64,000 nt of DNA from Candidatus Nanosyncoccus sp. (GCA_045660085.1 JAZRDA010000014.1:1984-65983), one strand, 5' to 3'; numbered from the stretch's first letter, positions 3,317 to 61,071 are shown. Notes: generated by a model not told the origin, from the sequence alone. Translations and numbers: made by a program.

Positions 3317-4018
3317 TTATTCTATTATTACTGCGCGCACAAATTGACGTGAAAGGTAAGTTCCTCGCTGTTGCGACCATTCGCCTGAACAAGTAATTAA
3401 AGTAACGGATTCCTTGCCTGGAATTGGCGATTTAGCCGCCGTAGACATATATCGATCAGCATCAGATAGCAAGACTTCTTTATTCTCATATACTTTATAA
3501 GAATATTTCAGGCCATCGCCCCGCTCAATCACAATAATATCCCCCTCACTAAGTTCCGGCAAATCCTTAAAAACACCGTGCACGTGCGGCCCACCATTGT
3601 GTCCATCAATAATCATCGTCCCTCCCTGACCTGGTTTCCCAGACTCCTGATACCAACCCACATCGAAAATATTACGTGGCGTGTCAAGCGCATTATTATC
3701 CGTCAGTCCCATCGGCAAAACTCTCGCATTATAAATGCCTAGCGCCTCAATCGTCATGTATCTCGGCCTATCTGCCGCCACCACATATTCATAAACCTCT
3801 TCTTCAGTTGGTTTTTCCTCAATCAGCTCTTCCTCGGGCTGAATTGCTCCAACATTACTTGTAGTCGCCCTTTCGCTACCTTCTTTTTCATTATAATAAT
3901 AGTTTTCAAATGCTATCACCCTTATAATAAAAACCAAAAACAACACAGCCAGGACGGCTAGCCCGACCCATTTCGCTACTCTACGCCAGCTAAGATCAAT
4001 CTTTAAGCTCATCACCAA
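3317..4018 (-). CDS. sortase-family transpeptidase (membrane-anchored)
   Basis: N-terminal transmembrane anchor (WVGLAVLAVLFLVFIIRVIAF). Conserved His in MIIDGHNG, catalytic Cys in VTLITC, downstream Arg (LSRQFVRAV), and the DVGWY motif seen in class E/F sortases. Overlaps the secY stop by 23 nt. Confidence 0.8.
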   Translation of the reverse strand: MVMSLKIDLSWRRVAKWVGLAVLAVLFLVFIIRVIAFENYYYNEKEGSERATTSNVGAIQPEEELIEEKPTEEEVYEYVVAADRPRYMTIEALGIYNARVLPMGLTDNNALDTPRNIFDVGWYQESGKPGQGGTMIIDGHNGGPHVHGVFKDLPELSEGDIIVIERGDGLKYSYKVYENKEVLLSDADRYMSTAAKSPIPGKESVTLITCSGEWSQQRGTYLSRQFVRAVIIE

Positions 4019-5429
4019 AATCGTCGTAAGTTATCATTAGAGCTCTAGAATCCACCGACCTCAGATTCTCTAACGCCACCGTTACCACAATCAAAAGCCC
4101 AGTACCAGAAATTGATAAGCCAATCGGCGCACCAGTAATCACGATGAAAATGTAATCAGTAATAAATGGCAACATCGCAATTAGCCCCAGCGCCAAAGCG
4201 CCAAATAAATCTAGGTGATTTACAACCTTGGACAAGTATTTAGAAGTAGTAATACCAGGCCTCACCCCCTCAATGAATCCACCCTGCTTCTGCAAATTAT
4301 CCGCAATCTCCTTCGTGTTGAAAATGATTGACGTATAGAAATAAGTAAACATGAAGACTAGTAGGAAATACATCGCCGGATAAACAAACCATTTCCCAGT
4401 AATACCATCTGGGTACATCGTCGCGAAATTGTTAGCCGAAGGCGCCGAAAAAATTGAAACTAATCCTGCTCCGAATTCATTCCCCTCATCGAAAGTCATA
4501 ATCACCTGACCCACCAGTGCAGGCAGCGACAGGAAAGCCGTAGCGAAAATCACCGGAATCACACCAGCCGCAATCAGCTTGATTGGCAAAATCGACTTAA
4601 TTCCGCCATATGACGAATTACCATGCACTCGCTTCGCATAATTTACGGTTATAATTCTCTGAGCTTCGTTCAACTTCACCAGGAAATATATCACCACTAG
4701 CATAGCGATAGCAAATCCTAACACAATCCAGAATGTCGTCGGATTAACTGGTAATTCGAACCAACCAAATAAACTCAAGCTCCCTTGAGCTGTATCAAAT
4801 AATGCCGCCCCAAGTGAAGCCATAGTGGTGGGTAACTGAGAAATAATTGAAGCAAAAATTAAAGTAGAAATACCGTTTCCAATCCCTTGCTCAGTAATCA
4901 ATTCGCCCATCCACATCAATATCACCGAACCAGCCGTCATTGCCGTCACCGACAAGGCCCAATCACCGAAAGTCGGAGTAAATTCACTCGCAATATTTGC
5001 CGACAAAGTCGACTGATACAATATAAATATATAAGCAATAGATTGCACAATAGCTAGCGGCACGGTCAGCATTCTCGTCCACTGATTAATCTTGCGACGA
5101 CCCGTCTCACCATCATTAGATAATTCTTCAAGTGAAGGGATAGCCTTAGTTAGAAGCTGAATCACAATCGAGCCAGTAATATAAGGCGAAAGCCCGACCA
5201 GAATAATGCTAAATGAAGCCAGACCACCACCTGAGATTAAGTTAAGAAAGCTCGAAAAATCAGATTTCTCCATCAAATTTGAAACTGCTTCCTTAAATGT
5301 TGATGCATCGCCCATCGGTACCGGAATCTGTGCCAAAAGTCGATAAGCAACAATTATCCCAAGTATAATCATTACTCGTTTCAGCATGTCTTTATTTTTT
5401 AGCGATTTGAAAATAGTCTTGAAATGCAT
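3996..5429 (-). CDS. secY: preprotein translocase subunit SecY
   Basis: Multi-pass membrane protein with SecY-like blocks (GGLASFSIILVGLSPYITGSIVIQLL, INQWTRMLTVPLAIVQS, YGGIKSILPIKLIAAGVIPVIFA). Start moved from 5519 to the ATG at 5429 (MHFKTIF), which has GAGG 5 nt upstream. Confidence 0.92.
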   Translation of the reverse strand: MHFKTIFKSLKNKDMLKRVMIILGIIVAYRLLAQIPVPMGDASTFKEAVSNLMEKSDFSSFLNLISGGGLASFSIILVGLSPYITGSIVIQLLTKAIPSLEELSNDGETGRRKINQWTRMLTVPLAIVQSIAYIFILYQSTLSANIASEFTPTFGDWALSVTAMTAGSVILMWMGELITEQGIGNGISTLIFASIISQLPTTMASLGAALFDTAQGSLSLFGWFELPVNPTTFWIVLGFAIAMLVVIYFLVKLNEAQRIITVNYAKRVHGNSSYGGIKSILPIKLIAAGVIPVIFATAFLSLPALVGQVIMTFDEGNEFGAGLVSIFSAPSANNFATMYPDGITGKWFVYPAMYFLLVFMFTYFYTSIIFNTKEIADNLQKQGGFIEGVRPGITTSKYLSKVVNHLDLFGALALGLIAMLPFITDYIFIVITGAPIGLSISGTGLLIVVTVALENLRSVDSRALMITYDDFGDELKD

Positions 5430-5518
5430 AATAACCTCTGAATTTGTACTATATAGAATATAGCACATAAACCAGCAAAATACAACAAAAAACCTTACGC
5501 GAACAGTCTGGAAGAACA

Positions 5519-5645
5519 AGAAAATATCCGAAATGGCATATTGAGGAATCTGTCGGAGGTTACGACCGAGACAGAAGGAGCGCCGCCCCCGTAACGACGG
5601 GCGGCGGCGACTCCGTGTCCGAAAGATGCCATTCGGATATTTTTT
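5519..5645. repeat. GC-rich structured palindromic element (variant A of the element family)
   Basis: Closing arms aaaatatccgaa/ttcggatatttt (5521-5532 / 5632-5643) plus tggcat/atgcca. GA opposite GA (5543-5544 / 5621-5622). Two internal hairpins (5550-5574, and 5577-5614 with the 8-bp cgccgccc/gggcggcg stem). Abuts the rpoC stop codon. Confidence 0.7.
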
Positions 5646-8600
5646 ATAGATTCTCTAGATCTTCCTCAGTCGGTATTTTCGAATCTGGTACTTCAAAATC
5701 CGACAAAGGCGCTACACCAGTACCTACCGGAATCTTACGACCGATAATTACATTCTCCTTGAGACCACGTAGATGATCCACCCGTCCATTAATCGCCGCA
5801 TTAATCAGAACCCTAGTCGTATCCTGGAATGATGCCGCCGACAAGAACGAATCCGTGAAGATTGAGACTTTCGTTATACCAAGCAGCAAGTTATTATAGG
5901 TCATTGGTGCTTTACCCGCAGCCTCTAGTTCCTTATTGGTGAGGCTTGCCGCTGTCTTAGAGATGATATCACCAGAAACAAACTCAGAATCGCCCGGATC
6001 AACCACTTGCACTCTAGAGAACATTTGGCGAACCAGAATTTCCAAGTGCTTCGGTGAAATCTCATGACCCTGCGCCGCATACACATTAAGAACGTCGTTC
6101 ATGATGTAGCGCTCAGTCGCTTCAATTCCCTTATACTTCAAAAGATCTTGTAGATTCAAAGAACCAGTTGTTAGCCTATCACCAGCCTTTACTAAATCAT
6201 TAGACTTTACTACAATCTCGGCATCACCTGGTATTTCAATTTTAATTGGAGCGCCCGCTGCAGATACAAGGATAATTGCATCTTTTACTAGCTCTACCAC
6301 ACCATCATTTGGTGCCTTAATAGCAGGGCTAGAGCCGCTCTTTCTCACCAAGATAGCACCAGCTTTTACACTTTCGCCATCTTTTACCGAAGGCTTTCTA
6401 CCATTTAGTTCAATCCTCTCAATCGCACCAGATTGTGGTGAAATTTGTACGACATAATGATTATTATCTTCATACACTTCTGCTACACCCTCAATTGGCG
6501 ATACGTAAGCTTGACCTTTTGGTGTACGAGCTTCAAGCAGCTCCTCTACACGTGGAAGACCTCTTGCGATTGCACCAGAACCTGCCACACCAGAACCGTG
6601 TTTAGTATCAAGCGTTAGCTGCGTACCCGGCTCACCAAGCGACTGCGCAGCAATCACGCCGACCGGCTCATTCGCCGCTACTAATTCCCTAGTTGCCATA
6701 TCCACACCATAAGCCTTGCGTGGAATACCATTGACAGCCTTGGTCGAAAGTACAGACTGAATCTTAACACCTTCAATCTTTTCATCGGCCTCAATTTGCT
6801 CGGCCATCTCCTTAGTAATCAGCTCATCTGCTTCCAGATATCCAGGCACCACGTCTGCCGTATAACGACCAGCAATCCGTGCACTAAACTCAATCCCAGA
6901 AGCTTCAGTCTCATTGCGGTAAACCATGAATCCAGGGTCCTCAGCCTCTTCATTTGTAGTAAAGACGTCTTGAGAAACATCCACAAGACGGCGTGTCAGA
7001 TAACCAGAGTCTGCCGTGCGAAGTGCCGTAGACACCTGACCCTGACGTGCACCTCGAGTCGCAATGAATGATTCTAGGGTGTTTAAACCCTTCTTATATG
7101 ACGACTTCACCGGAAGCTCGATTTCATTGTTGTTAATATCCACCATGATACCAATCTCTGCCGAAGCGAGCTTAATGTTCGAAATATTACCACGAGCACC
7201 AGAGTTCACCATCACTGCAATATCAGTATCCATTTCGTTTAGCTTACCAGCTAAGAAATCGGATATCTTCTTGTCAATGTCACGCCAGTTAGCAATCGTT
7301 AACTTATAGCGCTCTTCGTCAGTCGTCAGACCATCATTGTAATCTTGCTGAATCAGAGCCGTCTTCGCATCGCCCTCCGCGATAAAGTCATCGATCTCGC
7401 TATAAGTAGGATAATCATCCTTAGCAGTGGAAATCGAAGCCACAGTTTCGTATTCGAAAGCTAGGTCCTTCAAATCGTCAGCCGTCTTCACCATCGTCTC
7501 CGAACCATAAAGGTCGAAAATGTCCGCCATCACCTTGGAAAGATGCTTCTTGTTCTGGACTGAATTATCATATGGATAATCAGCCGGCAAGATTTCGTTA
7601 AAGATTACTCTACCAAGCGTGGTATTACGAATCTCTTTCTTCGCAAAGACCCGAATCGGTGTTTGCAAATTAATCACGCCCTGATCGTAGGCCATTTCTG
7701 CTTCATAAACCGAAGAGAACGCCTTTGGTTTATCAGTATCAGTACCAGGCTTATCGTAAGTCAAATAATAAGCACCGAGCACCACATCCTGATAAATCGC
7801 GAGCACTGGAGAACCGTCCGCTGGTTTCAAAAGATTTTTCGAAGCTGACATCAATTCTCGAGCCTCATCCTGAGCAGCATCTGATAGTGGTAGATGTACT
7901 GCCATCTGGTCACCATCATAGTCGGCGTTAAAGCCAGATGCCACCAAAGGATGTAGTTTAATCGCCTTACCATCAATCAATCTTGGCTGGAAAGCCTGCA
8001 CCGATAAACGGTGAAGCGAAGGAGCACGGTTCAAGAGCACATACTTACCCTTAATCACCTCATCCAGAGCATCCCAGACTACAGCTTCCTTAGCCTCAAG
8101 CAGTCTCGAAGCTGCTCGGATATTGTTGGCATATTCATTACCAATCAGCCAGGAAATTACAAACGGTTTAAAGAGTTCTAGCGCCATTTGCTTTGGTAAA
8201 CCACATTCGTGTAATTTAAGTTCCGGCCCCACCACAATCACCGAACGTCCAGAGTAATCCACACGCTTACCCAGCAAATTCTGGCGGAAGCGACCCTGCT
8301 TACCTTTTAATAGATCCGACAGAGACTTCAGCTTGCGACGACCATTGGTCGAATTAGCACCCTTAGAACCATGAGAAGCCGAATTGTCGATCAAAGAATC
8401 GACTGCCTCTTGCAGCATTCTCATCTCATTGCGGCAAATCACCTCTGGTGCATGCAAATCAAGCAGCTTCTTCAAACGGTTATTGCGGTTAATAACTCTA
8501 CGATACAAATCGTTTAAGTCGGATGTCGCAAATCTACCACCAGGCAAAGCAATCATTGGGCGAAGATCAGGTGGAATCACCGGCACAACCGTCAGAATTA

Positions 8601-9478: not shown

Positions 9479-12400
9479 TTAGAACTCCTCTCCGAGATCG
9501 ACGGTACCGTCATTTTCGTCAATCTCCGTTATTCCGATACCCTCTTCCGCCATCATCGCTTCAGCTTCGGTCTCATCGAGATCCAGAATCTGTGGCTCGG
9601 TATCTTTTTTATGTTGATCATATATAGATTGATCATCTTTAGACTTCTCAATTTCCTTCGAGGTCTTTTCTATTACATCTCCAGCATCAGCAACTTCACC
9701 ATGGTCTAGTAGGTCGACCTTAAGACCAAGACCTTGAAGCTCCTTAACGAGAACGTTGAAACCTTCAGGTAGCTTCGGCCCTTCGATCGGCTCGTGCTTA
9801 ATAATCGCCTCATAAGCCTTAGCACGCCCGTAGACATCATCCGACTTAATCGTGAGCATTTCCTGCAAAGTAGTAGCCGCACCGTAAGCTTCCAGTGCCC
9901 AGACTTCCATCTCCCCGAAACGCTGACCACCGTTTTGTGCTTTACCACCAAGCGGCTGCTGTGTCACCATCGTGTAAGGACCAGTCGAACGAGCATGAAT
10001 CTTATCCTCCACCATGTGATGAAGTTTCAGCATATGCATTACACCCACCGAAGTCCTCTCGTTAAACGGTTCACCAGTCAAGCCATCGTAAAGCTGCACT
10101 CTACCATCACGCGCAAAGCCAGCTTTTTCCAGCTCATCCGAAATCACTTCATCAGGCACACCGTTAAACGATGGGGTAGCAACCTTGTATCCAAGTGCTC
10201 TAGCCGCCATACCAAGGTGGGTTTCAAACAACTGTCCCAGATTCATACGCGAAGGCACACCCATTGGCGACAGAACAATATCAATCGGTGTACCGTCAGC
10301 CATAAATGGCATATCTTCGACTGGCAACACTCTCGAAACCACACCCTTATTACCGTGTCGCCCTGCCAGCTTATCACCTACGCCAATCTTACGCATTTCA
10401 GCCACGAAAATCTTAATTTGCATTATCACGCCGGCTTTAAGATCGTGTCCCTGCTCTCTCGTGTAAACACGTACGTCAACTACTTTACCAGTAGATGAGC
10501 CGTTCATTCTCACTGAAGTATCGCGGACATCTTTAGCTTTCTCGCCAAAGATAGCGCGGAGCAGTCGCTCTTCTGAGCTTAGCTCCTGCTCGCCTTTCGG
10601 TGTAATCTTACCTACTAAGATATCACCGTTCTTAACCTCAGAACCAATAGTCACGATACCATCCTCACCCAAATGTCTTAATGAATGTTCAGACACATTT
10701 GGAATATCACGCGTAACCTGTTCTGGACCAAGCTTAGTCTCACGCACCTCAACATCAAAATCTTTAATATTAATCGAAGTCAAGGTGTCGTCTTCTACTA
10801 AGCGATTCGAAATCACAATCGCATCGTCCATGTTATAACCACGCCATGGCATAAATGCGACTAACAAATCTCGCCCCAAGGCTAGCTCGCCATCATTAAT
10901 CGAAGCCCCCTCAATCAAAGCATCGTCTTTCTTAACCTTCTGGCCACGTGCTACCACGCATCGCTGGTTATAACAACGGTCATCATTGGTCTTCTCGAAA
11001 TGTTGCAGTCTATATTCGACATCGCCGCCCTTGTCATAGGTTACAATTACGCTCTGACTATCCGCCTTCTTAACTACGCCATTACCAGTAGCCATCACAA
11101 GCTGTGAAGTGTTCTTAGCGACTTCACGCTCAATACCAGTCCCGACAATCGGATTATCTTGGCGCAGTAGCGGCACAGCCTGTTTCTGCATGGCGCAGGC
11201 CATAAGTGAACGGTCAACCCGGTTCTTTTCCACAAATGGAATCAGCGATGCGGACACACCAAGAATCTCCTTATGCGCAGCATCAATATGAGTCACCCTC
11301 TTTGCCTCTACCTGTGCAGGCGTACCATGTACTCTTGCCGATACCCAATCCTCTACAAACCTTCCATCTTTATCAAGTTTCACCGAAGCATCAGCGATAA
11401 TTTTATCATTCTCCGTATCGGCATCCATATAAACTACTTCTTTGGTTGCTTTACCATCTTTCACTACAAGATATGGAGCTTCAATAAAACCGTATTCATT
11501 AATCTTGGCATACGTCGCAAAGTTGAGCACTAGGCCTACGTTACCACCTTCCGGAGTCTCAACCGTACAAATACGGCCATAATGAGTCGGATGAGCATCG
11601 CGTACATCAAATCCTGCTCTCTCACGAGTCAAACCACCAGGACCCATCGAGCTTAAACGGCGCTTATGTGCAAGCTCAGAGAACGGGTTTACCTCATCCA
11701 TTAATTGAGAAAGCTGCGAAGTCGCAAAGAATTCCTTCACCGCTGCAACTACTGGCCTTGAGTTAAGTAGCTGCGAAGGCGTTACGTCTTCTGGATTAGC
11801 CATTGACATACGGTCAAATATATTACGTTGCAAACGCAGCATACCTAATCTAAACTGCCTCTGGACCAATTCACCCACCAATTTCACTCGACGATTAGAC
11901 AGCGAATCGATGTCGTCTGGAGCTTCCTGAGTATTATTAAGACGAATAATCTCGGCCACGATAGCCTTCACGTCATCCATTTGCAGAGTTCTAAACTCTG
12001 GTTCGTTTGGTGTATCAAAACCTAGTCTACGATTAATTTTGAATCTACCTACTCTGGAGTAGTCATAACGCTTCTTGTCAAAGAAGGTTCTCTCAATCAT
12101 TGACCTAGCGTTTTCAACGGTAGCCAAGTCGCCTGGACGAAGCTTGCGATACACCTCAAGCAAAGCTTCACCTTGATTAGACGTAGTGTCCTTCTCAAAG
12201 GTCGCTTCGATATATTTACGCTCACCAGTGTCAACATCTTTAAAGGTATCGATGATTTGAGATTTAGTCATCCCGAGCGCTCTCAAGAACGTGGTAACCG
12301 GAATCTTACGACGACGATCAATCTTGACGAAAATCGCACCGTTTGCTGCCGTTTCAAACTCAAGCCAGGCACCTCGCCCCGGGATCACCTTAGCCCCATA

Positions 12401-12859: not shown

Positions 12860-13036
12860 TTTACCTCTTTTATTAGTGTTTAGTATCTTTTTGACAACAA
12901 ATCCAACAAAACAAACTCCCTTTTTGTTAGTATTAATTGTCTCAGCGCCGAAGATTACTGTTTTGTTTCCCCCTAAAGAGTCGCTGCCTCTATAAAGTTA
13001 CAAAAACAAAACACACTACTTCTTAACATTGATTAT

Positions 13037-13064
13037 ATTATATTCTTTTTTAAAAATCAAGCAA
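13037..13064 (-). promoter_or_regulatory. candidate sigma70-type promoter of rpoBC
   Basis: Minus strand reads TTGCTT, a 16-nt spacer, then TATAAT (a second overlapping TATAAT follows). About 170 nt upstream of the rpoB ATG, which implies a long leader. Confidence 0.45.
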
Positions 13065-13071
13065 AAAGTAC

Positions 13072-13099
13072 TTGAATTTTCTTAAAACATGTGTATAAT
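13072..13099 (+). promoter_or_regulatory. candidate plus-strand promoter (TTGAAT, 16-nt spacer, TATAAT)
   Basis: TTGAAT at 13072-13077 and TATAAT at 13094-13099. It points toward the hairpin/T-run at 13167-13196 with no ORF in between. Confidence 0.35.
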
Positions 13100-13105
13100 A
13101 AAGCA

Positions 13106-13197
13106 TAAGCTAACTAACTGCGAGTTCGCTTACAACATAAGAATCAAGTTGAGAGCTTATCTATGGCAAAAAATCCTCACCGTTGAGGGATTTTTTG
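13106..13197 (+). ncRNA. candidate ~90-nt small RNA (promoter to terminator, no ORF)
   Basis: Bounded by the promoter-like site at 13072-13099 and the terminator hairpin. Internal pairings ataagct/agcttat and gcga-gt-tcgc. No match to any RNA family I recognise. Confidence 0.2.
13167..13196. terminator. bidirectional rho-independent terminator
   Basis: aaaaaatcctcaccgttgagggatttttt: an 8-bp stem flanked by an A-run and a T-run. Lies downstream of khpA on the minus strand. Confidence 0.75.
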
Positions 13198-13294
13198 TTC
13201 GACAATCTTTATCCGCCAACTCGGACGAAAGTATATAACTATCGCAACAAAAATCGCAACTTTAAAAGTTGCGATTTTGCATACATCATAACCG

Positions 13295-13729
13295 TTAAAT
13301 ATCTAGGTCATCAAGATCGGCTAATTCCGCTCTGGTCTTCTCAGCTAATTCTGAAGTTTCTTCGTTCGTCTCTTCATCGTCATCCAAATCACTTTCTTCT
13401 TCAGGAGCAGCATTGTTTTCCACCGAATCGTCTTCCGTCTTTGCTTCTTCTCGCTTCTCAGGCTTCTCACCACCTTCAAATTCATCAGTATTTACGATCT
13501 TGAGATTGTAACGAGCATCTTGTTTTGTACCAAGCGCACGAAGCAATACTCTAATTGCTTGAGCGGTAACACCACGTTTACCAATCACCCTTCCCACATC
13601 TGATGGATCAACTGTAAGCGAAAGAAGCACACCCTTTTCATCGATTTTGCGCTCTACTGCTACCTTTTCAGGATTGTTGACTAAAGTTTTAACGATATAT
13701 TCTACGAATTGTTGGTCAATAGTAGCCAT
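13295..13729 (-). CDS. khpA: KH-domain RNA-binding protein (KhpA/YlqC-like) with acidic C-terminal tail
   Basis: KH core DVGRVIGKRGVTAQAIRVLLRALG. Conserved position after rpsP. Start set at MATIDQQ (13729), which has GGAG upstream. The C-terminal ~65 aa are Glu/Asp-rich. Confidence 0.8.
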   Translation of the reverse strand: MATIDQQFVEYIVKTLVNNPEKVAVERKIDEKGVLLSLTVDPSDVGRVIGKRGVTAQAIRVLLRALGTKQDARYNLKIVNTDEFEGGEKPEKREEAKTEDDSVENNAAPEEESDLDDDEETNEETSELAEKTRAELADLDDLDI

Positions 13730-19365: not shown

Positions 19366-19506
19366 GGTTCCATCATATAATTCAATAATATCGAGGGACA
19401 TAAAGGCAAAATCTTTGATTTTGCCGCCGTAGGGGCGTAGCGATGTGGTAAAATTTATTACCACATCGCGAAGCTCCCGAGATATATTGAATTATGTGAT
19501 GGAGCT
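19366..19506. repeat. structured palindromic element, copy B (intergenic)
   Basis: Closing stem of about 25 bp (19366-19392 / 19481-19506). GA opposite GA (19393-94 / 19479-80). Hairpins ggcaaaatc-ttt-gattttgcc and gcgatgtggtaa...ttaccacatcgc. The core 19399-19480 matches 60835-60916 at 76 of 82 positions. Abuts the stop codon at 19507. Confidence 0.8.
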
Positions 19507-28473: not shown

Positions 28474-31400
28474 CTACACGGCAAAACTGCGGTTTCTCAC
28501 ATCAGCATATTGAATATCGTTAATTAACGGAGTCTCATCGATAGCAGAGTCGTCATCATTAGATTGCAATAAAATACTTTTCTCAATATTTTCAGTCTCT
28601 CCAAAAGCATATCGCTCACCTGGATTGTAATTCGCAATATAATCATAGTACTCGATCAAGGCTAGCGTATCCACAACCTCCTCTTTCGTTAGTCCTGAAA
28701 CCCGCGCAATCTGCCCCTCAATCGAATTATCCAATGGATTCTCTCTATAATAATCTTCCAAAAATGCTACAGTGGAATTTGACTCTGTAATCTCCATATC
28801 ATAAAGCACACGTTGATCCAGATTATACATTGAAAAAGTCTTTACCATTTCATTTACATCTTGATTTTCCGTGTTTCCAGTACAAGCAGCCCCACTATTC
28901 CATTTAAAGTTATTCGCTTGTTCAGCCGCATCGATCACATCCAAGAAACCCTCAAACGGCACAAAATTTGCTCCGAAATTCACTATTCCATTAGCAATCG
29001 GACCACCACCCGCGATCCCTGCAACACCTTTCTGTACTCCCTCTATATATCCTTCAACTGCCGCATTCATAGTACCAGGCTGAGTATCACTGGAAACACA
29101 GGCAATCACATATTTTGCATAATCTGAACCGTTTTTAATCTTTGGGTTACCATAAGAATCTAAGCCATCAAAACTCCCATACTTTACCATTTTGTCATAA
29201 ATCTCATCATAACTTACACTGGTTAGTTCATTTACGTAAGCGCCAGAATATTTGCCACAGGCAAAATCTCCAGCCACGCCAACCGATTTTAGAGAGCTAC
29301 AATTATCCTCACTAGCCAGCGAAATCGCATATTTATTAACGTTGTCAGCCGCATTCGCATAGGAACTCATGGATGATAAGGTCGACGATTTGACCAAATC
29401 GGCCACAGAAGAAGCAGTAGATACAATCATCCCACTATCCATACTGTTTATAACCGGTATCATTGAATTAAATAAACTACCAAAGAAAGTATATTTACTA
29501 GTAATATCAAAAGGGCTTAAAGTTGCTCGTTCATAAGCAGCCCATTCCTCCTCCACATTCTTCGTAAGTCCAAAAAGCTCAATAGCATTTTCTCTACTAG
29601 CATATCTACCAGTACTTGCCTGAAGCATAGCATCAAGAATACTGCGAACACCAACATACGATGCATATCCACCATTTAAACCTAGAAAAGCATTTTTAAG
29701 TTCATCTGCAAACCAGGATGCTACCATTGGCGCAATTGCAGTTATCACAGATGTGATTAAAGTTATACTTCCAGCTAGTGCAGCCCCTTTCAGCGTACCT
29801 ATAACAATTTCTTTAATTCCGCCAAACAGCCCAAACGTAAACACCGAAGCCACATCCGAAATACCGTCGACCGCACCGGCCACCCCCTGCAAGGTATTAC
29901 ATACCTTATAAACTTCAGTCCCACCAGATGCATCAAGCATAAGAATGATCGCATTTTCTATCCCGCCTAGGGAGCCAGCCTTAACTAGTGTATGAAGCGC
30001 ATTTCTATTAGCATATTCCCGATTAACATAAAGAGCGCTAGGATCATTTTCGTTAATAACACCCGCTCCAGCAAAAACTGCAGCAAAACCTGGACTGCTA
30101 ACAACCGAACCTGGGCGTTCAACTTCATTACCATCAATATCGTAAGCCTTCGTTTTTACAGATTCACTCCAATTATTAAGCGATAGATTCGTCACTTCAT
30201 CAGCATCGCCGCTTTTTATTTTATCAGCTATTTCTAAATAAATTGATGCATAGTTTCTTAGGCTAAGAGTAACCATCGCGCCGACGGCCGAGCTAATTGA
30301 ACCTATACTTCTCAAGAAACCACAACCCACTGTACCGCTCAACATTGCGGCTTTCTGTGCCTTCACAGAAAGCCCACTAGTAACAGCATCTACACTAGGA
30401 TTATTAGTTCTTAACGTACCATCACTATCAGCTAGTTGCCTATAAGACTTTCCGTCTGCAACATCTTCGTCTACATCAACATTACCCGTTCCAAACACCT
30501 TCCTGCCATCTTCCGTTTCCGTCTCCTCTCCATTTGAAGCCCTCACAGTATCATCATCTATTCCATTACTTCTATTCTTATATAACAATTCATCAACACC
30601 TTCCTCAGTTTTATTCTCAATATCAGTCTGTTTACGAGCGTTATCCCCCACAATCCTCTTCAAGACTATATCGGCCATATTATCAAACCATCCCGCAACT
30701 TTACCAGTGAAAGATACGGTAGCCGCATCATAGTCGGCGCTAAACTGCCTATTCGTTTTTCTTGCATTGGTTAAGGTTAAGCTCGAATCAGCAAGTTTCA
30801 CTCTTCTGCCATCAATATCAACCTCTGCACCCGACTTGGCCAGCGCATTAGCTCTTGTCACATCACCATCAGTCGCTACTACCGGTATCATTCTTCCATT
30901 TGAATCTTCATAAACAAGCATCTTTAATGGTCTTCCGTCTGCATCACTAGTATCAACATAATGAATATTAAATTTTTTCAGTCTATTCGCAAGGCTAGAA
31001 CTCATCTTGACCGTATTCGAATTACCACTTAATATCTTAAACATCAAATAATTAGATCTAACATTCATTACGGCACTATTCTGGCCAAATAGCGAAACGA
31101 GATTTTCTTTCCACGAGACAACCTCAGGAATCATAGCAGTAAAGGATACGGTTCCCAACCCAAAAATCGCAACAATAATACCAATAATACCAGAAGGAGT
31201 TCTCTTAAAAAACAAACCATTTTTCTTTTTAAACTTACCCTTCGACTCACGACTGTGGCCAGAATAAAACCCGCCAGCTCTTTCTTCTTCCTCGCGCGCA
31301 TCAACTAGAGTCTCACCCGATCTATAGAACCCTTTCCCACCGTCTATCTTTTCTTCTGCGCTCTTTAATTTCTCCAACTCGACATTATTCGCCCTACTAT

Positions 31401-59266: not shown

Positions 59267-59303
59267 AAAAATCAAGTCGGAATTCACTTCCGACTTGATT
59301 TTC
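59267..59303. terminator. bidirectional terminator hairpin
   Basis: aaaatcaagtcggaa-ttcac-ttccgacttgatttt. Flanked by two further hairpins (59233-59257 and 59322-59346). Confidence 0.7.
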
Positions 59304-60012: not shown

Positions 60013-61071
60013 ATGAATATTTGGCAACAATTACCTAAACCATTTTTAATTCTGGCGCCTATGGAAGGCGTGACGGATATTTTGTTTCGTCAAGTTATTG
60101 CCAGTGCTGGCCGTCCAGATTTATTTTTCACGGAATTTACCAACGTGTCAAGTTATGCTTCCGAAAAAGGTCGCGCGAACGCCCTAGAGAGGCTCCAAAT
60201 CGCCCCCACTGATCCACCGATTATCGCTCAGATTTGGGGCAAAAATCCAGACCATTTCTCGGAAGTTTCATCCGCGCTTTCATCGCTCGGTTTTTCAGGG
60301 GTAGACCTCAATTTTGGTTGTCCCGATAAGCACGTCAATAAAGCTGGTGGTGGTGCCGCTATGATTAAGACCCCAGAACTCGCCGTAGAGTGTTTCCGTA
60401 ATGCGCACAAAAGTACCGAATTGCCAGTATCAATCAAAACCCGCCTCGGCTGGTCAGACCTTAATGAATACAAGACCTGGCTCTCGATCCTCCTCGCCGA
60501 ACACCCAGCCGCCCTTACCGTGCACCTTCGCACTAAGAAGGAGATGAGTAAAGTTCCCGCACACTACGAACTTATTCCAGATATTATCAAGCTCCGTGAC
60601 GAAATTAGTCCCGAGACCAAATTAATCATCAATGGCGATATAAGAGATCACGCTCACGCCCTAGAGTTACACCAACAATACCCCGAGGTTGACGGCTTCA
60701 TGATTGGCCGCGGTGTCTTTCAAAACCCATATTGCTTCACCGATCACATCCCTACTCGGGAAGAATTGATGGAACTCTTGAAACTACATTTAGATTTATA
60801 TGAAAAATATACGACCTTCGCAAATATTGAGGAACATAAAGGCAAAATCTTTGATTTTGCCGCCGCAGGGGCGAAGCGATGTGATAAAATTTATTATCGC
60901 ATCGCGAAGCTTCCGAAATATTGCGAAGGTCGTATATCGTTATCATATGAACCTTTGAAGCATTTTTTCAAAATCTACGTCAATAATTTTCCAGGCGCCA
61001 AAGAGCTTCGCGCCAAACTCATGGAAACCCACTCTGTTTCTGAGGCCCGCAAAATCATTAAAAATACATAA
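60013..61071 (+). CDS. dus: tRNA-dihydrouridine synthase carrying an in-frame palindromic-element insertion
   Basis: Dus TIM-barrel motifs LAPMEGVTDILFRQV, VDLNFGCP and IKTRLGW. The C-terminal helical domain is interrupted by ~40 aa encoded by repeat copy C. Confidence 0.88.
   Translation: MNIWQQLPKPFLILAPMEGVTDILFRQVIASAGRPDLFFTEFTNVSSYASEKGRANALERLQIAPTDPPIIAQIWGKNPDHFSEVSSALSSLGFSGVDLNFGCPDKHVNKAGGGAAMIKTPELAVECFRNAHKSTELPVSIKTRLGWSDLNEYKTWLSILLAEHPAALTVHLRTKKEMSKVPAHYELIPDIIKLRDEISPETKLIINGDIRDHAHALELHQQYPEVDGFMIGRGVFQNPYCFTDHIPTREELMELLKLHLDLYEKYTTFANIEEHKGKIFDFAAAGAKRCDKIYYRIAKLPKYCEGRISLSYEPLKHFFKIYVNNFPGAKELRAKLMETHSVSEARKIIKNT
60807..60937. repeat. structured palindromic element, copy C (inside dus, in frame)
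   Basis: 17-bp perfect closing stem (60807-60823 / 60921-60937). GA opposite GA (60829-30 / 60915-16). The core 60835-60916 matches 19399-19480 at 76 of 82 positions. Confidence 0.85.

What the first reader, a model, noticed from the sequence alone, without database searches (positions are those of the whole stretch)
60807..60937. Palindromic element inserted in frame inside the tRNA-dihydrouridine synthase gene (RPE-like)
- **Structure:** a 131-bp imperfect palindrome sits inside dus and is read through in frame. It has a perfect 17-bp closing stem (60807-60823 pairs with 60921-60937).
- **Copy identity:** its 82-nt core (60835-60916) is identical at 76 of 82 positions to an intergenic copy at 19399-19480.
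- **Effect on the protein:** it adds about 40 residues (..TTFANIEEHKGKIFDFAAAGAKRCDKIYYRIAKLPKYCEGRIS..) between LHLDLYEKY and EPLKHFFKIYVNNFPGAKELR. As far as I recall, Dus proteins have only a short linker there.
- **Frame preservation:** one of the six core substitutions (A at 60874 versus T at 19438) turns the TAG of the intergenic copy into AAG. That is exactly the change needed to keep the dus frame open.
- **Precedent:** in-frame palindromic insertions are known from Rickettsia (RPEs). I am not aware of a description in CPR/Saccharibacteria-like genomes.
Basis: partly seen in the sequence, partly recalled or inferred. Interest (0 to 1): 0.75.

Follow-up and report, generated by a model that had tools for sequence, protein, structure and literature searches.

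The report
Palindromic mobile element translated inside dus
A small hairpin-forming piece of repetitive, apparently mobile DNA sits inside the tRNA-dihydrouridine synthase gene of a rumen Saccharibacteria bacterium and is read through as about 40 extra amino acids in a surface loop, the same odd habit known from Rickettsia and apparently not yet described in this group of ultra-small bacteria.

Summary
A 131-bp structured palindrome (z = -10) lies in frame in dus, and its core matches the copy at 19399-19480 at 76 of 82 positions. It belongs to a dispersed, non-coding, MITE-like family ("type A"). I found 68 copies in rumen Saccharibacteria DNA. They have terminal inverted repeats of about 25 bp, an excess of 8-9-bp flanking direct repeats, filled and empty sites, and a strongly covarying three-hairpin core.

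The same dus loop holds a second, GC-rich family ("type B/C") in other genomes, in both orientations and in four reading modes. B/C copies are also read through in DnaX, ValRS, Der/EngA and another protein, which is Rickettsia-palindromic-element (RPE)-like behaviour. The window's dus copy is composite: type A nested inside the remnant ends of a B/C copy. A genome 97% identical to the window carries B/C at that spot.

AlphaFold2 places the insert in a low-confidence loop of the C-terminal helical domain. The TAG-to-AAG "frame-saving" argument does not: A or G is the family norm and T is rare. No transposase partner was found, and translation is inferred, not shown. Verdict: new families of a known kind of element, in a new phylum.

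The parts
60013..61071 (+). dus (tRNA-dihydrouridine synthase) ORF, 352 aa, read through the element
   Evidence: ORF list. Pfam PF01207, E = 2.9e-47, covering residues 13-248. Orthologues.
60805..60942 (+). Whole composite insert (138 bp = 46 codons) lying between the two flanking direct repeats
   Evidence: Direct reading of the sequence, the direct-repeat analysis and the junction alignment with L001.
60796..60804 (+). Left flanking direct repeat TTATATGAA (candidate target-site duplication)
   Evidence: The repeat has 9 bp with one mismatch and lies 24-26 nt from the core on both sides. It is ambiguous, because LYE and SYE also occur in insert-free orthologues.
60943..60951 (+). Right flanking direct repeat TCATATGAA
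60805..60814 (+). Outer left stem AAATATACGA, interpreted as the remnant left terminal repeat of an older type B/C element
   Evidence: It is shared with the B allele of the 97%-identical genome L001. It also resembles the B/C terminal repeat AAAATATCCGAAATGG of the window's own copy at 5523.
60930..60938 (+). Outer right stem TCGTATATC, interpreted as the remnant right terminal repeat of the B/C element
60815..60828 (+). Type A left terminal inverted repeat (truncated and diverged): CCTTCGCAAATATT
   Evidence: Comparison with the family repeats ...AATTCACCAGTATT and with the orthologous dus copies in L002 and L004.
60829..60916 (+). Type A core. It comprises a tandem G.A internal loop, a 4-bp helix (60831-34 with 60911-14), hairpin 1 (60841-61), hairpin 2 (60862-72) and hairpin 3 (60876-60905).
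   Evidence: Fold. Covariation in 24 of 41 pairs, and in 26 of 41 pairs over 48 distinct copies with 0 of 500 shuffles as high. Covariance model R1 scores it 135 bits.
60917..60929 (+). Type A right terminal inverted repeat AATATTGCGAAGG
19370..19502 (+). Second type A copy, a typical family member (core 19393-19482). It is intergenic, between the glycosyltransferase stop (19507) and the leuS start (19316), both on the - strand.
   Evidence: 135.5 bits. The site is empty in L127 and L128, and the core is inverted relative to the gene in L126.
5523..5641 (+). Type B/C element, intergenic, upstream of secY (which is on the - strand)
   Evidence: R2 match of 57 bits, E = 1.6e-9. Fold of -71.5 kcal/mol. 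SecY Pfam match.

Best explanation
**What it is.** The segment is a copy of a non-autonomous, MITE-like palindromic repeat ('type A': about 140-160 bp, terminal inverted repeats of about 25 bp, and a three-hairpin core). It sits inside the remnant ends of an older element of a related GC-rich family ('type B/C'). That older element had inserted into the loop between the first two helices of the C-terminal helical domain of Dus.

**How it persists.** The composite is transcribed and translated with the gene, adding about 46 residues to a surface loop that tolerates variable length. Selection keeps only the reading frame and the absence of stop codons, not the peptide.

**How the site evolves.**
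- Whole alleles (A, B/C or empty) are replaced by short-tract homologous recombination between related strains.
- The core is flipped by recombination between the two stem arms.
- Internal deletions and deletions between direct repeats leave footprints.
- Copies in the same genome probably convert one another.

**Shown here:** repeat-family membership, covarying structure, presence/absence at the site, orientation flips, multiple reading modes, an intact ORF, and loop location in the model.

**Inferred:** actual translation, transposition as the means of spread, the nesting order, and recombination as the swap mechanism.
For: **It is a dispersed repeat family.**
- There are 17 full type A copies in 1.34 Mb of Saccharibacteria loci.
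- There are 51 more in 45 rumen metagenome contigs.
- Terminal inverted repeats fall into subfamilies.
- Flanking direct repeats of at least 8 bp occur in 13 of 58 copies, against 4.4 +/- 1.9 in mismatched-flank controls; 0 of 200 controls reach 13.
- Filled and empty sites exist. The GT-leuS spacer is 190 bp in the window and 52 bp in L127 and L128. In Der, L061 is filled and L065 is empty.

**The dus insert is not part of the protein family.**
- Of 73 Dus loci, 32 have a linker of 33 nt or less, 8 carry type A, 14 carry B/C (3 of them reversed), and 2 carry internally deleted copies.
- L015 is the reverse complement of L017 at 97% identity at the same site.

**The peptide is not conserved.** The invariant B/C hairpin is read in four orientation/frame modes, giving RNDG, PVKTG, PSSRG and RRHG.

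**Stop-codon content points to translation.**
- 44 of 56 non-dus type A copies have no open frame, whereas the dus copies have 2-4.
- 48 of 50 metagenome copies have a stop when read in the dus phase.

**RPE-like habit.** B/C copies lie in frame in DnaX (two genomes), ValRS, Der (two genomes) and a Fib_succ_major protein.

**Nesting and swap.**
- Window and L001 are 97% identical and collinear over 12.9 kb, yet carry A and B respectively.
- The breakpoints lie inside the shared outer stem.
- That outer stem matches the B/C terminal repeat.

**Loop location.** In the AF2 model (pLDDT 78.5, pTM 0.80), residues 268-308 have pLDDT below 50 and lie between helices 249-267 and 313-323. Other lineages have non-folding linkers of 7-33 aa at this point.

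**Not a known RNA.** Rfam has no match.
Against: - No autonomous partner or transposase with matching terminal repeats was found in the 1.56 Mb I held.
- Direct repeats are detectable in only about a fifth of copies. The pair at dus could be pre-existing sequence.
- The very strong covariation inside the core and the G.U over A.C excess on one strand of type A (69:25) are not required by a simple DDE-type MITE. They hint at a folded single-strand stage or a function.
- No transcript or peptide data show that the insert is translated.
- How a family with stops in all six frames first survived inside dus is not explained directly.
Confidence: 0.8

Rival explanations
1. The element is primarily a functional structured nucleic acid, either an RNA motif or a folded ssDNA signal, maintained by selection. 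On this view its presence in dus is a regulatory or processing feature rather than selfish DNA.
For: - Covariation is strong in all helices: 97.3% of cells are paired against 83.4% when shuffled, with 0 of 500 shuffles as high; for B/C the figures are 87.3% against 66.9%.
- Unpaired linkers and a tandem G.A internal loop are conserved and shared by both families.
- G.U to A.C is 69:25 on the sense strand of type A.
- Pairing is kept in dus copies even though the flanking gene sequence has diverged to about 75% identity.
Against: - Copies lie in both orientations relative to neighbouring and host genes.
- They sit between convergent, divergent and co-directional genes, with no association with any gene class.
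- Closely related genomes differ in presence or absence, and in which family occupies the site.
- The G.U bias is absent in B/C (19:13).
- Rfam has no match.
- Covariation can also arise from selection for transposition competence, from gene conversion, or from quasipalindrome template switching.
Confidence: 0.1
2. The roughly 40-aa segment is an ordinary lineage-specific protein linker or mini-domain of Dus, and its similarity to 19399-19480 is incidental.
For: The site is naturally length-variable: other clades have peptide-conserved, non-folding segments of 14-33 aa there.
Against: - There are 68 nucleotide-level copies elsewhere, mostly intergenic and closed in all frames.
- The same site holds unrelated peptides produced from one DNA element read in four modes.
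- A 97%-identical genome has a different element there.
- The fold z-score is -10, against about 0 for genuine linkers.
Confidence: 0.02
3. The element is removed before or after translation, in the manner of an intron, a bulge-helix-bulge-type excision, or an intein. On this view Dus protein lacks the insert.
For: The long perfect closing stem brings the two gene halves together, as in some excised intervening sequences.
Against: - Every genic copy is a multiple of three and free of stops. This held for all 73 dus loci whose two flanks were located, and for the DnaX, ValRS and Der copies. Intergenic type A copies are closed in all frames.
- That pattern is expected only if the insert is translated.
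- There is no match to an intron or ribozyme family.
- The insert is far too short for an intein.
Confidence: 0.03
4. The inserts are retained because they benefit the host at the protein level, for example as variable surface loops that alter tRNA binding or interactions. On this view they have been domesticated and are no longer merely tolerated.
For: - The inserts persist in several housekeeping proteins.
- The C-terminal helical domain of Dus is the tRNA-binding domain (established knowledge of Dus structures), so an insert there could matter.
Against: - The peptide sequence is not conserved, with four reading modes in use.
- Empty alleles and deletion footprints are common among close relatives.
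- The AF2 model gives no confident structure for the insert.
Confidence: 0.05

Closest known systems
Rickettsia palindromic elements (RPEs; Ogata et al. 2000, as summarised in PMC10969869)
   Same: - Both are palindromic repeats of about 100-150 bp that occur in several families.
- Both are scattered in intergenic DNA and are also inserted in frame in unrelated housekeeping genes.
- Both are read through as extra peptide at positions compatible with the protein fold.
- Both occur in a host with a small, reduced genome and a host-dependent lifestyle.
   Different: - The phylum is different (Saccharibacteria/CPR), and sequence relatedness to RPEs was not tested.
- Here the encoded peptide is demonstrably not conserved, with four reading modes at one site. 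RPE families were described as encoding a conserved peptide (PMC10969869).
- One family (type A) is essentially non-translatable, and is found in a gene only where it is nested in the other family.
- Orientation flips and allele swaps occur at a single site.
Bacterial MITEs in general (e.g. Correia, ERIC, Nezha, RUP; review PMC10969869)
   Same: - Small size and no coding capacity.
- Terminal inverted repeats and many dispersed copies.
- Presence/absence polymorphism and hairpin-forming transcripts.
- Some flanking direct repeats.
   Different: - No parent insertion sequence was identified.
- The internal core is the most conserved part, and it shows strong compensatory covariation in three internal hairpins. 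Typical MITEs conserve mainly their ends.
REPINs / REP elements mobilised by RAYT transposases
   Same: Both are dispersed, mostly intergenic, hairpin-forming repeats that could plausibly be handled as single-stranded DNA.
   Different: - REPINs are two inverted short REP units with a variable loop, so the arms are conserved. Here the loop (core) is conserved and the arms vary by subfamily.
- No RAYT gene was examined or found.

Membership tests
MITE (miniature inverted-repeat transposable element) | Small size (under about 300 bp) with no coding capacity of its own | tested here: met
   The elements are about 110-160 bp. Intergenic type A copies have stops in all six frames in 44 of 56 cases.
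MITE (miniature inverted-repeat transposable element) | Terminal inverted repeats | tested here: met
   The outer arms are 22-30 bp and fall into recurring subfamilies. Ten of ten outer-stem pairs covary.
MITE (miniature inverted-repeat transposable element) | Target-site duplication flanking the element | tested here: inconclusive
   Direct repeats of at least 8 bp, symmetric about the core, occur in 13 of 58 copies, against 4.4 in controls (0 of 200 controls as high). They are seen in only about 22% of copies, and no exact filled/empty junction was available.
MITE (miniature inverted-repeat transposable element) | Multiple dispersed copies with insertion polymorphism between related genomes | tested here: met
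   I found 68 type A and 26 B/C matches at many loci. Filled and empty sites are shown.
MITE (miniature inverted-repeat transposable element) | A related autonomous insertion sequence with the same termini | tested here: not met
   No pair of the family's terminal repeats lies 0.4-5 kb apart in the 1.56 Mb held. This is a thin sample of about 20 kb per genome, so the absence is weak evidence.
Rickettsia palindromic elements (RPE-like behaviour) | In-frame insertion in several unrelated protein-coding genes, read through | tested here: met
   B/C copies lie in frame in Dus, DnaX, ValRS, Der/EngA and a Fib_succ_major protein. Type A is read through only in Dus.
Rickettsia palindromic elements (RPE-like behaviour) | Insertion at positions compatible with the protein fold (surface loops or linkers) | tested here: met
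   - **Dus:** the insert is a loop with pLDDT below 50 between two confident helices.
- **Der:** it lies in the GD1-GD2 linker.
- **ValRS:** it lies between the catalytic and anticodon-binding domains.
- **DnaX:** it lies after the lid domain.
Rickettsia palindromic elements (RPE-like behaviour) | Sequence homology to RPE-1 to RPE-10, and a conserved encoded peptide | not tested
   No RPE consensus sequences were available in the tools. Peptide conservation was tested and is not met: four reading modes are used. This is therefore RPE-like in behaviour, and is not filed as a member of the RPE families.
Any Rfam RNA family | Match at or near the family's gathering score | tested here: not met
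   The whole window gives no match at gathering thresholds. In the permissive searches, the best match is 19.6 bits against a cut-off of 155 for the dus type A copy, and 16 bits against a cut-off of 59.5 for B/C. The search around the second type A copy likewise gave only weak matches far below cut-off.
REPIN / RAYT system | Conserved REP arms in inverted pairs with a variable spacer, plus a RAYT gene | tested here: not met
   The architecture is the reverse, with a conserved core and variable arms. RAYT genes were not searched for.

The most novel reading that the evidence does not exclude
The covarying four-way-junction core could be a folded single-strand recognition module for a mobilisation machinery that has not yet been identified in CPR bacteria, acting through an ssDNA or RNA intermediate. 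Its conserved purine-rich linkers and its tandem G.A internal loop are shared by both families. If so, this would be a new class of structured mobile element rather than a decayed derivative of an insertion sequence. It would be one that repeatedly remodels surface loops of essential proteins in genome-reduced episymbionts.
Probability: 0.15. Interest if true: 0.75.

Novelty: new member of a known kind. Interest (0 to 1): 0.55.

Why it matters
- In-frame 'selfish DNA in protein-coding genes' has been a near-unique curiosity of Rickettsia. A second, independent case has now turned up in Saccharibacteria, another lineage with tiny genomes and an obligately host-associated lifestyle. This suggests the phenomenon is linked to reductive genome evolution rather than to one genus.
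- It gives a natural experiment on how essential proteins (Dus, DnaX, ValRS, Der) tolerate peptide insertions of 30-50 aa.
- The dus site shows the full life cycle in one place: insertion, nesting, inversion, allele swap between 97%-identical strains, and deletion footprints.
- Practically, these elements inflate and split orthologue clusters and break metagenome assemblies. They could also serve as strain markers.

Tried and rejected
1. **Unique stem per copy.** My early idea was that each copy has its own outer stem, created from target sequence or by insertion into pre-existing hairpins. I rejected it once 51 more copies showed that the stems fall into a few terminal-repeat subfamilies.
2. 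**Known ribozyme or RNA family.** There is no Rfam match for either family.
3. **Obligate sense-strand RNA.** Orientation relative to neighbouring genes is mixed, and cores are flipped at orthologous sites.
4. **Phage origin.** Core patterns of both families give no match in viral contigs.
5. **Autonomous partner.** None was found among the held loci.
6. **The 992-bp segment in L001.** This segment, absent from the window, has a 271-aa ORF with no Pfam or PADLOC match and no matching terminal repeats.
7. **Inverted repeat I4 (28862-29108).** It lies inside a 1018-aa ORF and folds weakly, so I treated it as chance.
8. **ValRS and DnaX filled/empty comparison.** No locus shared both flanks.
9. 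**Exact insertion boundaries from L013 versus L008/L009.** The flanks are too diverged.
10. **Loose direct-repeat criterion.** A threshold of 5 bp or more showed no excess over control. Only the strict criterion did.

Full report
**1. The observation**

- Bases 60807-60823 are the perfect reverse complement of 60921-60937.
- The region folds to -66.6 kcal/mol, against -31.7 +/- 3.4 for dinucleotide shuffles (z = -10.2).
- The core 60835-60916 matches 19399-19480 at 76 of 82 positions without gaps.
- A 31-mer from the core occurs only at these two places in the window, with none expected by chance.
- The segment lies in ORF 60013..61071, a 352-aa Dus protein (Pfam PF01207, E = 2.9e-47), and contains no stop.

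The fold is more than a palindrome. It has a long closing stem, a tandem G.A internal loop, a 4-bp helix and three hairpins.

**2. Is it part of Dus?**

No. The closest relatives are all Saccharibacteria Dus proteins, and their lengths fall into classes of about 311 aa and about 345-355 aa. Alignment shows that all the length difference lies at one point, between LHLDLYE.. and ..YEPLKHFF.

I fetched 80 Dus loci from ruminant-gut Saccharibacteria (Ca. Nanosyncoccus and relatives). Both flanks could be located in 73 of them. The site states were:

| State at the site | Loci |
|---|---|
| Linker of 33 nt or less | 32 |
| Other non-element linkers of 39-123 nt | 17 |
| Window-type element (type A) | 8 |
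| Second element family (type B/C) | 14 |
| Internally deleted copies | 2 |

The longer non-element linkers do not fold (z about 0) and are conserved as peptides. The site is therefore a naturally length-variable loop. The elements fold with z about -10.

**3. Two families, one superfamily**

*Type A.*
- A covariance model built from 14 copies has 24 of 41 pairs with compensatory changes.
- It finds 17 full copies in 1.34 Mb of Saccharibacteria loci.
- A degenerate core pattern retrieved 45 rumen metagenome contigs holding 51 more copies.
- On those 48 distinct copies, 97.3% of cells pair, against 83.4% in shuffles and 31-47% when the partners are slid. 26 of 41 pairs show double changes, and 0 of 500 shuffles reach the observed values.

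*Type B/C.*
- It is built around an invariant hairpin, GCCCCGU-AAnG-ACGGGC.
- 23 of 25 pairs covary.
- The model gives 26 matches, including one in the window at 5523-5641, upstream of secY.

The two families share the junction motifs (T)ATTGAGGA(A/G)CAT and TCCGAAA. Neither matches any Rfam family. Neither core pattern occurs in viral contigs.

**4. MITE-like anatomy**

With only two copies in hand, the outer stems looked unique to each copy. With 64 copies they resolve into terminal-inverted-repeat subfamilies, for example ..GACATTGTTGCATAATTCACyAGTATT|core| and ..GAGTTAyATTATCTACTrCAATT|core|.
- The window's intergenic copy is a typical member. The dus copies carry diverged, truncated versions.
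- Flanking direct repeats of at least 8 bp, at symmetric distances from the core, occur in 13 of 58 copies. Mismatched-flank controls give 4.4 +/- 1.9, and 0 of 200 reach 13. This is consistent with a target-site duplication of about 8-9 bp in at least part of the family. A looser criterion gave no signal.
- Intergenic copies show no orientation preference relative to neighbouring genes.
- No larger element with the same ends was present in the 1.56 Mb I held.

**5. Mobility and inversion at the second window copy**

The glycosyltransferase-leuS spacer is 190 bp in the window. It is 52 bp in L127 and L128, where the glycosyltransferase is 79% identical, so that site is empty.

L126, whose glycosyltransferase is 93% identical, has a nearly identical core after the same gene, but on the opposite strand relative to it.

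The same kind of flip is seen at dus. The L015 core is the reverse complement of the L017 core at 97% identity, and L016 and L019 are also reversed. Recombination between the two stem arms is the simplest cause; this is an inference.

**6. What is conserved in genic copies**

The conserved feature is the nucleic-acid structure, not the peptide.
- Host genes read the invariant B/C hairpin in four orientation/frame modes: RNDG/RDDG (9 copies), PVKTG/PVTTG (5), PSSRG (2) and RRHG (2). All four modes occur at the dus site alone.
- The one unused forward frame contains TAA or TGA.
- B/C copies are GC-rich (0.50-0.69, against 0.43 for the window). They average 2.6 open frames of six whether genic or intergenic, so they are inherently translatable.
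- Type A copies outside dus average 0.25 open frames, and 44 of 56 have none. The dus copies have 2-4.
- 48 of 50 metagenome copies have a stop when read in the dus phase.

This contrast is the main evidence that the insert is translated. That is an inference; there are no expression data.

The family has G (36 copies) or A (26) at that column, and T in only 3.

**7. RPE-like habit**

B/C copies lie in frame inside the following genes:
- DnaX, in L064 and L068;
- ValRS, in L007, between the catalytic and anticodon-binding domains;
- Der/EngA, in L061 and L057, in the GD1-GD2 linker;
- a Fib_succ_major protein, in L063.

The Der linker is a second recurrent site. It is empty in L065 and holds various single, nested or different hairpin inserts in four other genomes, all in frame. 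Recurrence at such sites is best explained by survivorship in tolerant loops, together with a tendency of elements to land in one another.

**8. The window's dus copy is composite, and recently swapped**

- Window and L001 are 97% identical and collinear over 12.9 kb. Their dus flanks are 95-100% identical right up to the insert. Yet the window carries type A and L001 carries type B.
- The differing tract is the palindrome itself, including one compensated outer pair (A..T against G..C). The outermost bases GTATACGA...TCGTATAC are shared.
- That outer sequence matches the B/C terminal repeat. The window's secY-upstream copy has AAAATATCCGAAATGG, and the L001 dus copy has AAAGTATACGAATGGG. Type A therefore sits nested within the remnant ends of a B/C copy.
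- On a Dus tree, A and B carriers are interleaved: window with L001, L004 with L076, and L002 with L029.
- L004 and L076 share a dus gene that is about 97% identical within a locus that is about 82% identical. The site evidently evolves by recombinational allele replacement.
- The window's dus core is slightly closer to the window's own intergenic copy (90%) than to the orthologous dus copies in L002 and L004 (88%). It also shares loop indels with the intergenic copy. This suggests intragenomic conversion.
- Footprints of loss are visible. L013 shows a deletion between direct repeats, L023 keeps the stem without the core, and L010 has an internal deletion.

**9. Protein context**

An AlphaFold2 model built from 61 orthologues (pLDDT 78.5, pTM 0.80) has an intact TIM barrel and a C-terminal helical domain. 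Residues 268-308, the insert, have pLDDT below 50 and lie between confident helices 249-267 and 313-323. Solved Dus structures align only to the barrel, residues 12-240.

**10. Comparison with what is known, and novelty**

- In behaviour, this matches Rickettsia palindromic elements as summarised in PMC10969869.
- In anatomy, it is MITE-like.
- I did not test sequence relatedness to RPEs. The defining RPE feature of a conserved encoded peptide is not met.
- Literature searches for Saccharibacteria, CPR or Patescibacteria together with palindromic element, MITE or inverted repeat found nothing relevant.
- I therefore class this as new families of a known kind of element in a new phylum.

**11. 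Open points**

- What mobilises the elements is unknown.
- It is unclear why the internal hairpins covary so strongly.
- The G.U to A.C ratio of 69:25 on one strand of type A is unexplained.
- It is unclear how a normally untranslatable family first became open in dus.

These points leave a modest chance of about 0.15 that the core is a recognition module for an unrecognised single-strand mobilisation mechanism.

Noticed in passing
window 5523-5641 (+): A type B/C palindromic element sits just upstream of secY (secY is on the - strand; the stop-to-stop ORF is 3999-5654). It folds to -71.5 kcal/mol, and its terminal repeat AAAATATCCGAAATGG matches the outer stem of the dus insert.
   Followed up: yes
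L001 7140-8131 (window junction 58138/58139): A 992-bp segment with a 271-aa ORF (7222..8037, - strand) is present in L001 but absent from the 97%-identical window. Together with the dus swap, it is one of only two structural differences in 12.9 kb. It has no Pfam or PADLOC match.
   Followed up: partly
L061:11582-11701, L057:12448-12590, L060 ~13300-13600, L058 ~12965-13236, L065 ~11760-11923: The GD1-GD2 linker of Der/EngA is a second recurrent in-frame insertion site. It is empty in L065. It holds B/C in L061, B/C with an extra nested hairpin in L057, an apparently double insert in L060, and a different long hairpin in L058 (-107 kcal/mol for the 272-nt stretch folded).
   Followed up: partly
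L033:7918-8057: A type A copy carries an insertion of about 45 nt in the loop of hairpin 2. The insertion contains AGCGAGCG, which resembles a fragment of the B/C core. This suggests that the elements insert into, or recombine with, one another.
   Followed up: no
L004 and L076, dus region ~10000-11300: The dus gene is about 95-100% identical between these two genomes, while the rest of the 20-kb locus is about 82% identical. Identity drops to 72-83% in the 120 bp upstream of the element. This indicates recent recombination specific to dus.
   Followed up: partly
L126:3053-3172 versus window 19378-19497: A nearly identical type A core follows the orthologous glycosyltransferase gene, but in the opposite orientation relative to it. 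Downstream sequence in L126 is not leuS, so the element lies at a synteny break. The right arm in L126 is partly degenerate.
   Followed up: partly
L013:6079-6117; L020:10784-10810; L023:10790-10858; L010:3373-3477: These look like footprints and decay products at the dus site. L013 (EKY|CGNCKPRHIS) fits a deletion between KY..KY direct repeats of a type A allele. L020 (EK|TYSHTHS) fits a deletion of a B allele. L023 keeps the 22-bp stem but has lost the core. L010 has lost the middle of type A.
   Followed up: partly
L053, L058, L063 (and relatives), dus site: A 99-nt segment at the same dus position is conserved as a peptide (..DVKHCAMQADLMREDPEFALK..) and does not fold (z about 0). It is either an ordinary linker or a fully domesticated or decayed ancient insert.
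   Followed up: partly
window 59268-59302 and 13250-13278: These are perfect short-loop hairpins of 15 bp and 14 bp (AAAATCAAGTCGGAA/TTCCGACTTGATTTT and AAAATCGCAACTTT/AAAGTTGCGATTTT). They are possibly terminators and were not examined.
   Followed up: no
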